A DNA stretch of 51,724 nucleotides from Candidatus Zixiibacteriota bacterium (GTDB taxonomy: Bacteria > Zixibacteria > MSB-5A5 > GN15 > FEB-12): NCBI GenBank assembly GCA_020346225.1, contig CP070777.1, positions 141,599 through 193,322 on the forward strand, read 5' to 3'. This document shows, in pieces, positions 7,417 to 7,824 of the stretch. The position numbers and the translations under genes were made by a program. Position 1 is the stretch's first letter; each line of letters opens with the position of its first letter. The notes beneath the pieces are model-generated. The model ran no database searches. It was not told the DNA's origin and was given only the letters and a program-made list of their open reading frames with translations.

Positions 7417-7824
7417 ATGAGTTCTATCAAGATGATCAGCGAGGCCGAGGCGACGGGTAAAACCAGGTCGATCTACGAAGACATCAAGGCGACTCTGGGC
7501 ATCGATTTCGTTCCAAACATGTACCGGGCGATGGCGGTCAAACCGGATTTCCTGGAGGCAAACTGGAACAAGGTCAAGGCGGTCATGCAGGCTCCAGGCA
7601 AACTTGACACTATCACCAAGGAAATAATTGCCGTGGCCGTGTCGGCGGTCATGGGCTGCCGGTACTGACTCACCGTACACACTTCCGCGGTGCGGAAACT
7701 TGGACTGGATGATGAGGGTATTGTCGAGTTGATGGCGGTAGTCGACCTTTTCAGCGGGTTTAACAAACTGATGGATGGGCTGCAGGTGGAAATGGATGAA
7801 AAGCCGTGGTACGGCTGAGGCTGA
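7417..7824 (+). CDS. AhpD/carboxymuconolactone decarboxylase-family selenoprotein: Sec84 in CxxU and probable second Sec134 (ends at 7818 if the second TGA is a stop)
   Basis: The ORF track stops at ...KEIIAVAVSAVMGCRY-TGA (7666-7668). The frame continues LTVHTSAVRKLGLDDEGIVELMAVVDLFSGFNKLMDGLQVEMDEKPWYG-TGA-GGC-TGA, which is the expected second half of the CMD fold. TGA sits at the second Cys of the CxxCxxxH motif and SECIS-like hairpins follow the first two TGAs. Confidence 0.9.
7669..7697 (+). promoter_or_regulatory. putative bacterial SECIS element 1
   Basis: Stem TTCCGC (7683-7688) / GCGGAA (7692-7697) with a GGT apical loop starting 20 nt after the in-frame TGA. Confidence 0.75.

What the first reader, a model, noticed from the sequence alone, without database searches (positions are those of the whole stretch)
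7417..7824. Hidden AhpD/CMD-family selenoprotein (CxxU) truncated by standard ORF calling
Seen: the 83-aa ORF ends GCRY-TGA and the same frame continues for 49 more sense codons (LTVH...EKPWYG). A 6-bp hairpin with a GGU loop lies 20 nt past the UGA. Established: AhpD/CMD proteins carry CxxCxxxH, CxxU versions are known selenoproteins, and bacterial SECIS elements lie just 3' of the UGA with a G early in the apical loop. Inference: codon 84 is Sec, and the gene is intact rather than a pseudogene.
Basis: partly seen in the sequence, partly recalled or inferred. Interest (0 to 1): 0.85.

Follow-up and report, generated by a model that had tools for sequence, protein, structure and literature searches.

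The report
AhpD-like gene with two selenocysteines
This small redox-protein gene is intact: its apparent premature stop encodes selenocysteine, and the next apparent stop very probably encodes a second one, which standard annotation also misses in relatives from many bacterial phyla.

Summary
ORF 7417-7668 ends GCRY-TGA, and the frame stays open for 49 more codons.

- The read-through protein matches Pfam CMD/AhpD across the TGA.
- Full-length homologues carry Cys at codon 84.
- The genome has selA, selB, selD and tRNA-Sec.
- The hairpin at 7683-7697 fits the published bacterial SECIS (selenocysteine insertion element) model. Its codons show almost no synonymous variation in 139 distinct genes.

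The gene model is probably two codons short.
- The "stop" at 7816-7818 is followed by GGC and then a second TGA.
- Both TGAs are present in 160 of 164 related loci.
- The few exceptions have Cys codons at one site or the other, and many database homologues end WYG-C-G.
- The codon after the second TGA is Gly, with a free third base, in 123 of 132 sequences.
- A second hairpin at 7832-7848 lies in the 3' UTR, 13 nt past this TGA. It covaries at all six core pairs across 129 sequences.

Best reading: a 135-aa CxxU...G-U-G double selenoprotein.

CxxU AhpD-like selenoproteins have been known since 2005. I did not find the second, C-terminal Sec described in what I could read. There is no experimental evidence.

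The parts
7408..7412 (+). Shine-Dalgarno-like GAGGA, 4 nt before the ATG
   Evidence: Read directly. The stretch GAGGAACGTATG is kept in the three closest of the four sequences aligned (the window and its two orthologues); the paralogue differs here.
7417..7824 (+). Full coding sequence as proposed: 135 codons (Sec at codons 84 and 134) plus the terminating TGA at 7822-7824
   Evidence: Translation with TGA=U. Pfam CMD and TIGR00778 AhpD core are above cut-off. The AlphaFold2 model has mean pLDDT 89.9 and is all-helical. Foldseek's top hits are AhpD-core structures.
7657..7680 (+). Active-site motif C81-R-Y-U84-L-T-V-H88 (CxxUxxxH)
   Evidence: The profile alignment to M. tuberculosis AhpD (1GU9) is a 50-for-50 residue stretch, query 69-118 to chain 118-167. 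I read it as gapless, though the residue-level alignment for this hit was not printed. On that offset of 49, C81, Y83, U84, H88 and E69 fall on Cys130, His132, Cys133, His137 and Glu118, which PMC3141380 names as the catalytic relay.
7666..7668 (+). First Sec codon (UGA, codon 84)
   Evidence: TGA here in 162 of 164 related loci and TGC in 2. Cys in 81 of 120 listed database homologues.
7683..7697 (+). SECIS 1: 6-bp stem with GGU loop inside the coding region, loop 20 nt after UGA1
   Evidence: 98.5% of cells are paired in 124 distinct sequences. The pair at alignment columns 24-32 reads CG 76, UA 33, UG 14, other 1. Synonymous entropy is 0-0.26 bits at codons 89 and 91-93, against 1.07-1.98 bits at other four-fold codons. 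The hairpin is lost in the two TGC loci.
7816..7818 (+). Second Sec codon (UGA, codon 134), annotated as the stop by standard ORF calling
   Evidence: TGA in 162 of the 163 loci that reach this codon and TGT in 1, L186. Database homologues end WYG-C-G....
7819..7824 (+). Gly135 codon (GGC) and the true stop (TGA)
   Evidence: The codon after UGA2 is GGC 43, GGT 36, GGG 27, GGA 17, GCN 8, AGC 1 in 132 distinct sequences. Exactly one residue follows U134 in 123 of 149 loci, and the final stop is TAG 71, TGA 42, TAA 35.
7832..7848 (+). SECIS 2: 6-bp stem with CGUGA loop in the 3' UTR, stem 13 nt and loop 19 nt after UGA2
   Evidence: 129 distinct sequences. All six core pairs show changes on both sides, for example AU 81 / GC 30 / GU 8, and UA 117 / CG 9 / UG 2 with none unpaired. 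83.8% of cells are paired against 20-46% when the partners are slid. No U-tract terminator is predicted.

Best explanation
Window 7417-7824 encodes one intact 135-residue protein of the AhpD/carboxymuconolactone-decarboxylase (CMD) fold that carries two selenocysteines.

SHOWN BY COMPARISON, NOT BY EXPERIMENT
- UGA 7666-7668 is read as Sec84, the second residue of a CxxUxxxH redox motif. It takes the place of the second active-site Cys of AhpD.
- UGA 7816-7818, which ORF callers take as the stop, is read as Sec134. The protein ends ...W-Y-G-U-G and stops at TGA 7822-7824.
- Each UGA has its own small hairpin that fits the bacterial SECIS model. One (7683-7697) is made of codons 89-94. The other (7832-7848) lies in the 3' UTR.
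- The genome supplies selA, selB, selD and tRNA-Sec.

INFERRED
- SelB carrying Sec-tRNA(Sec) binds each hairpin while the ribosome pauses at the UGA 13-14 nt upstream of the stem.
- The CxxU centre works as a thiol/selenol oxidoreductase, as AhpD does.
- The flexible G-U-G tail is a second redox-active or metalloid-binding site. It either exchanges with the CxxU centre of the same or a neighbouring subunit, or hands electrons or a ligand to a partner.
- Termination at UGA2 would give a 133-aa form without the tail, so the ratio of the two forms could follow selenium supply.
For: FIRST SEC (codon 84)
- Pfam CMD scores 65.2 bits over residues 43-124, spanning the UGA. TIGR00778 scores 55.3 against a cut-off of 27.8.
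- Of the 120 listed database homologues, 81 have Cys at codon 84. 31 print W there. 1 has Y, and 7 were missed by the pattern (a looser pattern counts 32 W-type).
- For 2 of the 32 W-type proteins I showed letter for letter that W is TGA read by table 4.
- Of 164 loci (the window's locus, 3 from relatives, 80 metagenome and 80 genome contigs), 160 are TGA/TGA, 2 are TGC/TGA, 1 is TGA/TGT and 1 is cut by its contig end. Two rows duplicate the same places (L019=L119, L038=L174).
- Hairpin 1: in 139 distinct genes, codons 89 (ACT 134/139), 91 (GCG 137/138), 92 (GTG 133/133) and 93 (CGG 105/105) are nearly fixed. Other four-fold codons show 1.07-1.98 bits.
- Ser TCC>TCT goes together with Arg CGG>Gln CAG: CG 76, UA 33, UG 14, other 1.
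- The G004 paralogue changes a U-A pair to G-C through two amino-acid changes.
- The two TGC loci do not form the hairpin.

SECOND SEC (codon 134)
- Sec/Cys pairing: L186 has TGT, and many database homologues end WYGCG, WYGCGG and so on.
- The next codon is Gly with all four third bases (123 of 132), Ala in 8 and Ser in 1. This pattern fits a translated codon under amino-acid-level selection.
- Hairpin 2 lies in otherwise diverged 3' UTRs. All six core pairs covary, and 0 of 500 shuffles reach the observed values on four of five measures; on the fifth, 2 of 500 do.
- The loop starts 16-22 nt after UGA2 in 117 of the 125 sequences in which a hairpin was found, whatever the tail length.
- Both hairpins meet the four constraints of the bSECIS model quoted in PMC13188914. 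Loops are 3 and 5 nt and stems 6 bp. G sits in loop position 1 or 2 and is followed by G or U. Spacing is 20 and 19 nt. MFE is -9.7 and -8.8 kcal/mol.

MACHINERY AND GENETIC CODE
- selD 381.5 bits, itself with an in-frame TGA; selB 295.7; selA 503.4; tRNA-Sec by ARAGORN and by Rfam at 68.4 bits.
- TGA is the commonest stop of long ORFs in this genome, 976 of 2077, so it is not reassigned.
- selB is over its cut-off in 4 of 5 other chromosomes that carry the gene (four TGA/TGA, one TGA/TGT). The fifth has selA and tRNA-Sec.

ASSEMBLY
- Contigs from sediment metagenome runs cover both UGAs with no other letter listed there. These may include the source sample.
Against: - There is no experimental evidence: no selenium labelling, no peptide and no RNA run (one search lists no RNA holder).
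- As single sequences the window's two hairpins do not fold better than shuffles (z +0.37, -0.60 and -0.93).
- For hairpin 1 only 2 of 6 pairs covary. 71 of 500 shuffles reach the number of covarying pairs. The -2 slid control has an equal covariation score (0.163 against 0.161), although it has 0 cells changed on both sides against 35.
- The one locus with Cys at codon 134 (L186) keeps hairpin 2. In that single case the hairpin's presence is not tied to UGA2.
- 8 of 133 distinct downstream sequences gave no hairpin of 5 bp or more with my simple script.
- selB was not found over its cut-off in 1 of 5 other genomes.
- The W=TGA equivalence was shown exactly for only 2 of 32 W-type proteins. 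One of them, P0033, has W at 84 yet ends at WYG, which I cannot explain.
- Sec insertion two codons before the end, with another UGA 6 nt later, must compete with termination. Its efficiency is unknown.
- The role of the tail is pure inference. The model leaves residues 133-135 at pLDDT below 50.
Confidence: 0.8

Rival explanations
1. One-Sec model. Codon 84 is Sec, but TGA 7816-7818 is the real stop and the protein has 133 residues. Hairpin 7832-7848 would be a 3' stability or processing element, and the GGN-stop after it would be a termination context or tandem stop.
For: - Gene callers and an NCBI record end the protein at ...WYG. P0049, 133 aa and named a CMD family protein, is 100% identical to the L185 gene over residues 1-133.
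- The review's Table 1 lists AhpD-like and CMD-like selenoproteins with 1 Sec.
- L186, with Cys at codon 134, keeps the hairpin.
- The 133-aa part alone already covers the whole CMD profile.
Against: - Homologues put Cys exactly at this position and continue with G, GG, GGH and so on. L186 reads TGT there.
- The codon after the UGA shows amino-acid-level conservation with a free third base, Gly in 123 of 132.
- The hairpin keeps a fixed distance to UGA2, not to the final stop, when the tail is 1-7 residues long.
- Its loop consensus CGUG(A) is conserved across phyla and fits the bSECIS model.
- It has no U-tract and no terminator is predicted.
Confidence: 0.12
2. Pseudogene or assembly error. 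A nonsense mutation or a miscalled base broke a CxxC AhpD gene, and only the 83-aa fragment, or nothing, is made.
For: Standard ORF calling gives an 83-aa product, P0103 in the protein collection.
Against: - The same TGA stands at codon 84 in 162 of 164 loci from many phyla.
- The downstream 49 codons are conserved at the protein level with free synonymous sites.
- The laid contigs show no other letter at the site.
- The genome has full Sec machinery.
Confidence: 0.01
3. Stop-codon reassignment. The organism reads TGA as Trp or Gly (tables 4 or 25), as the W-containing database proteins suggest.
For: 31 of 120 listed homologues print W at codon 84, and most of them also print W at codon 134.
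Against: - TGA ends 976 of 2077 long ORFs in this genome and ends this gene itself at 7822-7824.
- The loci come from many phyla that are not known for such codes.
- W in a CxxC redox motif has no homologue with a TGG codon in the 164 loci.
- tRNA-Sec with anticodon UCA is present.
Confidence: 0.01

Closest known systems
AhpD-like and CMD-domain CxxU selenoprotein families (Sargasso Sea 2005, PMC1088965; GOS 2008, PMC2398784; Table 1 of the review PMC13188914)
   Same: CMD/AhpD fold, Sec as the second residue of CxxU, Cys homologues, and SECIS immediately after the UGA. I read passages only.
   Different: Those families are listed with one Sec. This gene and 160 of 164 related loci carry a second in-frame TGA at the penultimate codon, with its own hairpin. 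At 135 aa the protein is also shorter than TIGR01926-type proteins of about 180 aa, and it scores below that model's cut-off (77.1 against 81.8).
PDB 2OUW, 'alkylhydroperoxidase AhpD core' of Rhodospirillum rubrum (138 aa, structural genomics)
   Same: It is the closest solved relative by sequence (E 8.2e-30 over residues 1-128) and the top Foldseek hit. It has the same length class and a CxxCxxxH motif.
   Different: It has Cys in place of Sec at the second position of the motif. The match ends at about query residue 128, and I did not see whether a WYG-C/U-G tail follows. Its function is uncharacterised. The TM-score is only 0.55 with rmsd 14.5 A, so the model and the crystal chain differ in how the helices are arranged.
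Mycobacterium tuberculosis AhpD (1KNC/1GU9)
   Same: The catalytic relay Glu118-Cys130-His132-Cys133-His137 maps onto E69-C81-Y83-U84-H88. Tyr stands in place of His132, as in P. aeruginosa PA0269.
   Different: The match is distant (E 1.1e-5, core helices only). Mtb AhpD has 177 aa, forms a trimer and has no Sec and no C-terminal Cys/Sec tail. That Cys133 is the attacking nucleophile is recalled, not checked here.
C-terminal 'star' selenoproteins (UXX-star families 1 and 2, KCU-star, GUXX-star, UXPK-star) and double selenoproteins of Haft and co-workers, as listed in PMC13188914 Table 1
   Same: Sec lies within a few residues of the stop, so the SECIS must lie beyond the coding region. Several of them have 2-3 Sec, including methyltransferase/AhpD-domain fusions (NF041537, NF045649).
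   Different: They are different sequence families. P0122 scores 23.1 bits against NF041537 (cut-off 510) and 16.4 against NF045649 (cut-off 380). The star models are not among its hits at E up to 1 or 0.01. Here Sec is followed by a single residue (U-G-stop). The original paper (PMC12013261) is not held, so I did not read it.
Mammalian thioredoxin reductase C-terminal Gly-Cys-Sec-Gly (recalled from general knowledge)
   Same: A penultimate Sec flanked by Gly on a flexible C-terminal tail, next to a separate dithiol-type redox centre.
   Different: The fold is unrelated and the SECIS is eukaryotic. There is no adjacent Cys in the tail here (Y-G-U-G). This is an analogy only, and nothing was tested.

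Membership tests
Pfam PF02627 CMD (carboxymuconolactone decarboxylase / AhpD) family | Whole-protein score above the gathering cut-off (23 bits), covering the profile | tested here: met
   65.2 bits, residues 43-124 matching profile 1-81 of 84.
NCBIfam TIGR00778 AhpD family core domain | Score above the curated cut-off (27.8 bits) | tested here: met
   55.3 bits, residues 61-108.
AhpD-type redox active site | Glu ... Cys-x-[His/Tyr]-Cys-x-x-x-His relay on two adjacent helices | tested here: met
   E69, C81, Y83, U84 and H88 align with Mtb Glu118, Cys130, His132, Cys133 and His137 at an offset of 49, read as gapless from equal stretch lengths. The relay residues are named in PMC3141380. H88 is invariant and E69 is at 90% or more in the Sec-type alignment A3. 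E69 and H88 are not conserved in the more distant CxxCxxxY homologues.
NCBIfam TIGR01926 peroxidase-related enzyme (the 'AhpD-like' selenoprotein family of the review) | Score above the curated cut-off (81.8 bits) over a model of about 178 positions | tested here: not met
   77.1-77.2 bits. Only model positions 2-92 are matched.
Curated AhpD-related (seleno)protein models NF041238, NF041047, NF041537, NF045649, NF053654 | Score above each curated cut-off | tested here: not met
   30.9 against 175; 25.6 against 110; 23.1 against 510; 16.4 against 380; 15.7 against 310.
Bacterial selenoprotein (site 1, codon 84) | In-frame UGA aligned with Cys in homologues, with conserved flanks on both sides | tested here: met
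Bacterial selenoprotein (site 1, codon 84) | bSECIS model: loop 3-9 nt, stem 4-16 bp, G in the first two loop positions, 16-37 nt from UGA to loop, MFE at or below -7.5 kcal/mol (PMC13188914, Fig. 2 legend) | tested here: met
   Loop GGU, 6 bp, 20 nt, -9.7 kcal/mol. Conservation and covariation. The bSECISearch program itself was not available.
Bacterial selenoprotein (site 2, codon 134) | In-frame UGA aligned with Cys in homologues, with conserved flanks | tested here: met
   G-[U/C]-G: L186 has TGT, database homologues end WYGCG..., and Gly follows in 123 of 132.
Bacterial selenoprotein (site 2, codon 134) | bSECIS model, same constraints | tested here: met
   Loop CGUGA (G in position 2, followed by U), 6 bp, 19 nt, -8.8 kcal/mol. 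Covariation at all six core pairs.
Bacterial selenoprotein (both sites) | Sec-decoding machinery in the same genome (selA, selB, selC, selD) | tested here: met
Bacterial selenoprotein (both sites) | Selenium shown in the protein (75Se labelling or mass spectrometry) | not testable with these tools
   The organism is an uncultured MAG lineage. The closest named records are Candidatus Zixiibacteriota MAGs.

The most novel reading that the evidence does not exclude
The family is a so far unrecognised double selenoprotein. Its annotated stop codon is itself a Sec codon, read through a SECIS hairpin in the 3' UTR.

This would hold across at least ten bacterial phyla. It would also hold in members that look like complete 133-aa Cys proteins in public annotation, such as the NCBI record identical to L185.

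The G-U-G tail would act as a mobile second redox or metalloid-binding arm that exchanges with the CxxU centre, a bacterial counterpart of the thioredoxin-reductase tail. Competition between termination and Sec insertion at UGA2 would make the 133-aa to 135-aa ratio a read-out of selenium supply.
Probability: 0.4. Interest if true: 0.65.

Novelty: new variant of a known kind. Interest (0 to 1): 0.5.

Why it matters
- **Annotation.** Standard calling truncates the gene to 83 aa here (P0103). Selenoprotein-aware annotation would most likely still stop two residues early. Losing those two residues leaves no sign of truncation, so Sec/Cys-pair searches can easily miss it. If the second Sec is real, selenoprotein counts for Zixibacteria, Gemmatimonadota, Chloroflexota, Thermodesulfobacteriota and others are understated, and so is the number of Sec residues in a widespread redox family.
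- **Mechanism.** This is a natural case of two SECIS elements in one short bacterial mRNA, one coding and one in the 3' UTR. Both are simple 6-bp hairpins, which makes them a convenient test bed for SelB recognition and for UGA recoding next to a true stop.
- **Function.** A CxxU centre plus a C-terminal G-U-G arm suggests relay chemistry that has not been described for AhpD-like proteins. In 9 to 16 of 81 loci each, the gene lies near ECF sigma factors, SAM methyltransferases, MddA-like methyltransferases or a Cys-rich protein of unknown function. This hints at thiol or metalloid stress, but it remains a lead only.

Tried and rejected
LED NOWHERE OR WAS NOT DECISIVE
- Single-sequence folding of the window's hairpins does not differ from shuffles. 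I rest on comparison instead.
- Rfam gave nothing at gathering level for the whole window. On 7640-7880, two snoRNA matches appeared at E above 1 and far below their gathering scores, which I take as chance. I saw no bacterial SECIS family among the hits.
- The terminator scan of 7250-8050 found 0 sites. Hairpin 2 is therefore not an obvious intrinsic terminator.
- I tried to collect DNA of Cys-type homologues as a control. A class-level search around G041 with P0049 found the family in only 6 of 251 genomes, with no new Cys/Cys locus. The control therefore rests on L185, L198 and L186 only.
- The exact-match test that database 'W' means TGA succeeded for only 2 of 32 proteins, because most source contigs are not among my loci.
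- No RNA holder was listed among the sequencing runs. All the laid runs are contigs, and some parts of the stretch are uncovered in some runs. These runs may include the sample the window came from, so they are weak independent support.
- The neighbour 7936-8457 has no Pfam family and only sub-threshold NCBIfam hits. The Atlas returned only clusters of hypothetical proteins.

CONSIDERED AND REJECTED
- Pseudogene, assembly error, TGA reassignment, and two separate small ORFs (83 aa plus 42 aa from GTG 7690). The last is contradicted by the continuous CMD profile match and by full-length homologues.

LITERATURE
- What I saw were the search listings, and passages (find mode) of PMC2398784, PMC13188914, PMC13326102, PMC1976440, PMC1088965 and PMC3141380. 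PMC12013277 had no occurrence of my terms.
- My statement that a two-Sec CMD/AhpD protein of this type is not in print rests only on these searches and passages.
- Haft & Tolstoy 2025 (PMC12013261) is not held.
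Full report
OBSERVATION

- ATG 7417 is preceded by GAGGA at 7408-7412. It opens a frame that reads 83 codons to ...M-G-C-R-Y and then TGA at 7666-7668.
- The frame continues for 49 sense codons (LTVH...EKPWYG) to TGA at 7816-7818.
- The hairpin has arms UUCCGC (7683-7688) and GCGGAA (7692-7697) and the loop GGU. The stem starts 14 nt after the UGA and the loop 20 nt after it.
- As a single sequence it is unremarkable: z = +0.37 for 60 nt and -0.60 for 45 nt.

WHAT THE PROTEIN IS

- Read through with Sec, the product (P0001) matches Pfam CMD (PF02627) at 65.2 bits over residues 43-124, which is profile 1-81 of 84.
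- The upstream piece alone covers profile 1-40 (30.2 bits). The downstream piece alone covers profile 43-81 (18.5 bits, below the cut-off on its own).
- NCBIfam gives TIGR00778 (AhpD core) at 55.3 bits against a cut-off of 27.8.
- All specific AhpD-related (seleno)protein models fall below their cut-offs. This includes TIGR01926 at 77.2 against 81.8.
- An AlphaFold2 model built on 74 sequences is confident (mean pLDDT 89.9, pTM 0.81) and consists of six helices. Residues 133-135 are below pLDDT 50.
- Foldseek's best PDB hits are AhpD-core and 'peroxidase-related' structures: 2OUW, 3C1L, 2PRR, 6K40, 2OYO and 6E8L.
- By sequence profile the closest solved relative is 2OUW (E 8.2e-30).
- The match to M. 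tuberculosis AhpD pairs query 69-118 with chain 118-167. The two stretches are equal in length, so I read the match as gapless; its residue-level alignment was not printed.
- On that offset, E69, C81, Y83, U84 and H88 fall on Glu118, Cys130, His132, Cys133 and His137. PMC3141380 names these as the proton relay. It also shows Tyr at the His132 position in PA0269 (passages).

FIRST UGA (codon 84)

- A search of the large protein collection found 2061 relatives at E of 1e-3 or better. The best 120 were listed.
- Of those 120, 81 have Cys at codon 84 and 31 print W. One has Y, and 7 were missed by my pattern (a looser pattern counts 32 W-type).
- The W-type proteins almost all also end ...WYG-W-G.
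- For two of the 32 I showed that the protein equals the table-4 translation of a locus with TGA at those codons (P0042 with L180, P0033 with L177). W is therefore TGA as read by a gene caller.
- At the DNA level I examined 164 loci: the window's locus, three from relatives, 80 metagenome contigs and 80 genome contigs.
- Of these, 160 have TGA at both codon 84 and codon 134. Two have TGC/TGA (L185, L198), one has TGA/TGT (L186), and one is cut by its contig end after a TGA at 84 (L042).
- Two rows duplicate places (L019=L119, L038=L174).
- The record titles name Candidatus Zixiibacteriota MAGs as the closest relatives (83-95% identity). Next come Gemmatimonadota, Nitrospinaceae, Syntrophobacterales and other Thermodesulfobacteriota, and Chloroflexota/Anaerolineae. 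Further out are Actinomycetota, Acidobacteriota classes, KSB1, Phycisphaerales and Dehalococcoidales.

SECIS 1 (7683-7697)

- In 139 distinct genes (from 148), the codons that build the hairpin are almost frozen at synonymous sites. Thr89 is ACT in 134/139 and Ala91 is GCG in 137/138. Val92 is GTG in 133/133 and Arg93 is CGG in 105/105.
- These correspond to entropies of 0.26, 0.06, 0 and 0 bits. Every other Ala, Val, Thr, Gly or Pro codon of the gene shows 1.07-1.98 bits.
- The one variable pair covaries. Ser90 TCC>TCT goes with Arg93 CGG>Gln CAG. The counts are CG 76, UA 33, UG 14 and other 1 in 124 distinct sequences.
- 98.5% of all cells are paired, and 35 cells are changed on both sides against 12.9 in shuffles (0 of 500 shuffles reach this).
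- Points against: only 2 of 6 pairs covary, and 71 of 500 shuffles reach that count. The -2 slid control has the same covariation score (0.163 against 0.161), with 0 cells changed on both sides.
- In the 72%-identical paralogue of G004, a U-A pair becomes G-C through Ser>Ala and Lys>His.
- The two loci with Cys (TGC) at codon 84 have lost or weakened the hairpin and do not fold into it.

SECOND UGA (codon 134)

This was not part of the finding. Four observations say that the 'stop' at 7816-7818 is a Sec codon.
1. **Sec/Cys pairing.** L186 reads TGT there and continues G-S-A-stop. Many database homologues end WYG-C-G, -CGG, -CGGH, -CGSTGN and so on.
2. **The next codon behaves as a translated codon.** It is GGC 43, GGT 36, GGG 27, GGA 17, GCN 8 and AGC 1 in 132 distinct sequences. 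A real stop then follows after exactly one residue in 123 of 149 parsed loci. The other 26 have tails of 2-7 residues. The final stop is TAG 71, TGA 42, TAA 35, with 1 cut off (which parsed 151 of the 164 loci).
3. **A conserved hairpin follows.** In the window its arms are GAAUGC (7832-7837) and GCAUUC (7843-7848), with the loop CGUGA.
   - It sits in 3' UTRs that are otherwise diverged.
   - In 129 distinct sequences all six core pairs show changes on both sides. Their counts are GC 96 / AU 9 / GU 9; AU 81 / GC 30 / GU 8; AU 104 / GU 9 / GC 7; UA 117 / CG 9 / UG 2; GC 125 / AU 3 / GU 1; and CG 122 / UG 4 / UA 3.
   - The last three of these pairs have no unpaired cell.
   - For the 8-pair structure I tested, 83.8% of cells pair, against 20-46% in the slid controls. 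0 of 500 shuffles reach the observed values on four of five measures, and 2 of 500 do on the fifth.
4. **The hairpin keeps its distance to UGA2, not to the final stop.** The loop begins 16-22 nt after UGA2 in 117 of the 125 sequences where my script found a hairpin. 8 of 133 had none of 5 bp or more.

Both hairpins meet the bSECIS constraints quoted in the legend of Fig. 2 of PMC13188914. The constraints are a loop of 3-9 nt, a stem of 4-16 bp, G in the first two loop positions, 16-37 nt from UGA to loop, and MFE at or below -7.5. The window values are -9.7 and -8.8 kcal/mol. No U-tract terminator is predicted.

Against this reading: L186 keeps the hairpin although it has Cys at 134. There is also no experiment.

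MACHINERY, GENETIC CODE AND ASSEMBLY

- The genome (one 3.18-Mb contig, 56.6% G+C) has all four parts of the Sec machinery.
  - selD scores 381.5 bits and itself has an in-frame TGA in a ...CAG-U-AAKL context.
  - selA scores 503.4 bits and lies next to selB at 295.7 bits.
  - tRNA-Sec with anticodon UCA is found by ARAGORN, and by Rfam at 68.4 bits.
- TGA ends 976 of 2077 ORFs of 250 aa or more, so it is an ordinary stop here.
- Of five other chromosomes carrying the gene (four TGA/TGA, one TGA/TGT), four have selB over its cut-off. The fifth has selA (545.7 bits) and tRNA-Sec (67.5 bits).
- Contigs of four sediment-metagenome runs laid on 7380-7880 list no other letter at either UGA. Pieces with 0 differences span 7528-7671, 7647-7710, 7771-7880 and 7801-7880. 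They may include the source sample.

HOW IT PROBABLY WORKS

Shown by comparison: there is one mRNA with two UGA codons. Each is followed 13-14 nt later by a 6-bp hairpin with G-G/U early in the loop, in a genome with SelA, SelB, SelD and tRNA-Sec.

Inferred:
- SelB·GTP·Sec-tRNA(Sec) docks on each hairpin and delivers Sec. This gives a 135-aa protein with a CxxU redox centre, where Sec takes the place of AhpD's Cys133, and a flexible G-U-G tail.
- The tail could form a selenenyl-sulfide or diselenide with the CxxU centre of the same or a neighbouring subunit. AhpD-like proteins are mostly hexamers or trimers (PMC3141380). Alternatively it could bind a metalloid.
- Termination at UGA2 would give a 133-aa form that lacks the tail.
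- The third TGA (7822) lies only 13 nt before the loop, below the 16-nt minimum of the model. That fits its role as the stop.

CONTEXT

- In the window the gene lies between an Abhydrolase_3 esterase/lipase gene (6375-7337) and a 173-aa Cys-rich ORF with no family (7936-8457).
- Among 81 loci (80 genome contigs plus the window), relatives of that ORF occur in 14. In most of them it sits directly next to the gene on the same strand, on either side.
- ECF sigma factors occur in 16 of the 81, class I SAM methyltransferases in 11, further CMD proteins in 11, protein kinases in 9 and MddA-like methyltransferases in 9.
- These are leads, not evidence of function.

COMPARISON WITH WHAT IS KNOWN, AND NOVELTY

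- CxxU AhpD-like and CMD-domain selenoproteins were described in 2005 and 2008 (PMC1088965, PMC2398784).
- The 2026 review lists them with one Sec each. It also lists C-terminal 'star' selenoproteins and double or triple selenoproteins, some with AhpD domains fused to methyltransferases (PMC13188914).
- The second Sec, hidden behind the apparent stop, and its 3'-UTR SECIS are a variant I did not find described. I looked in the passages and listings; one search had no occurrence of my terms.
- No curated NCBIfam model claims this family.
- An NCBI protein identical to the L185 gene ends at ...WYG.
Prior description therefore cannot be excluded.

VERDICT

- The gene model should be extended to a second Sec at codon 134, with confidence about 0.85.
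- Both together have confidence about 0.8.
- The mechanism of the tail is unknown.
- Novelty: a new variant of a known kind. Interest is moderate.

Noticed in passing
window 7936-8457 (+): A 173-aa ORF with no Pfam family. In 11 aligned relatives four Cys are invariant (C25 and C28 as CxxC, C86, C111) and a fifth (C127) is nearly so. Relatives occur in 14 of 81 loci from several phyla, mostly directly beside the AhpD-like gene on the same strand, upstream or downstream. It may be a partner or substrate.
   Followed up: partly
G000:C1:724970-725890 (outside the window; locus L001): selD of this genome is itself a selenoprotein gene, with an in-frame TGA at about C1:725000 in a ...SCAG-U-AAKL context. 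A run of N (withheld bases) lies just downstream of it.
   Followed up: partly
loci L023, L025, L027, L032-L036 and further rows: In genomes of the same family and order there are other AhpD-like frames of about 150-220 aa, 24-36% identical to this protein. Each has one in-frame TGA. This is probably a second, TIGR01926-like AhpD selenoprotein family. I did not check the position of the TGA.
   Followed up: no
protein P0033 against locus L177: An NCBI-sourced 133-aa protein prints W at codon 84 yet ends at ...WYG. No single genetic code reads the first TGA as Trp and the second as stop. Its own contig was not available, so this is unexplained.
   Followed up: partly
L186 (Dehalococcoidales MAG chromosome), locus positions 3397-3447: This is the only locus with Cys (TGT) at codon 134. 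It keeps a perfect copy of hairpin 2, and the stop codon of its longer tail (C-G-S-A-stop) lies inside the stem. It is either a recent Sec-to-Cys change or a sign that the hairpin has a further role.
   Followed up: partly
G004 (L020 and L038/L174) and CP070824.1 (L120, L121): Some Zixibacteria genomes carry two copies of the two-Sec gene. In G004 they are 94% and 72% identical to the window's protein. The window's own genome has one.
   Followed up: no
window 7722-7792, run X2 (table 5): One metagenome contig (depth 10.2) joins 7722 to 7792, skipping 69 bases. That would be an in-frame loss of 23 codons in the last helix. It is a variant or an assembly artefact from a related organism.
   Followed up: no
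window 5938-6165 and 8684-9118 (+): Two small neighbouring genes: a YgaP-like transmembrane protein (PF11127) and a Cys-rich DUF3795 protein (PF12675). Their link to the selenoprotein gene was not examined.
   Followed up: no
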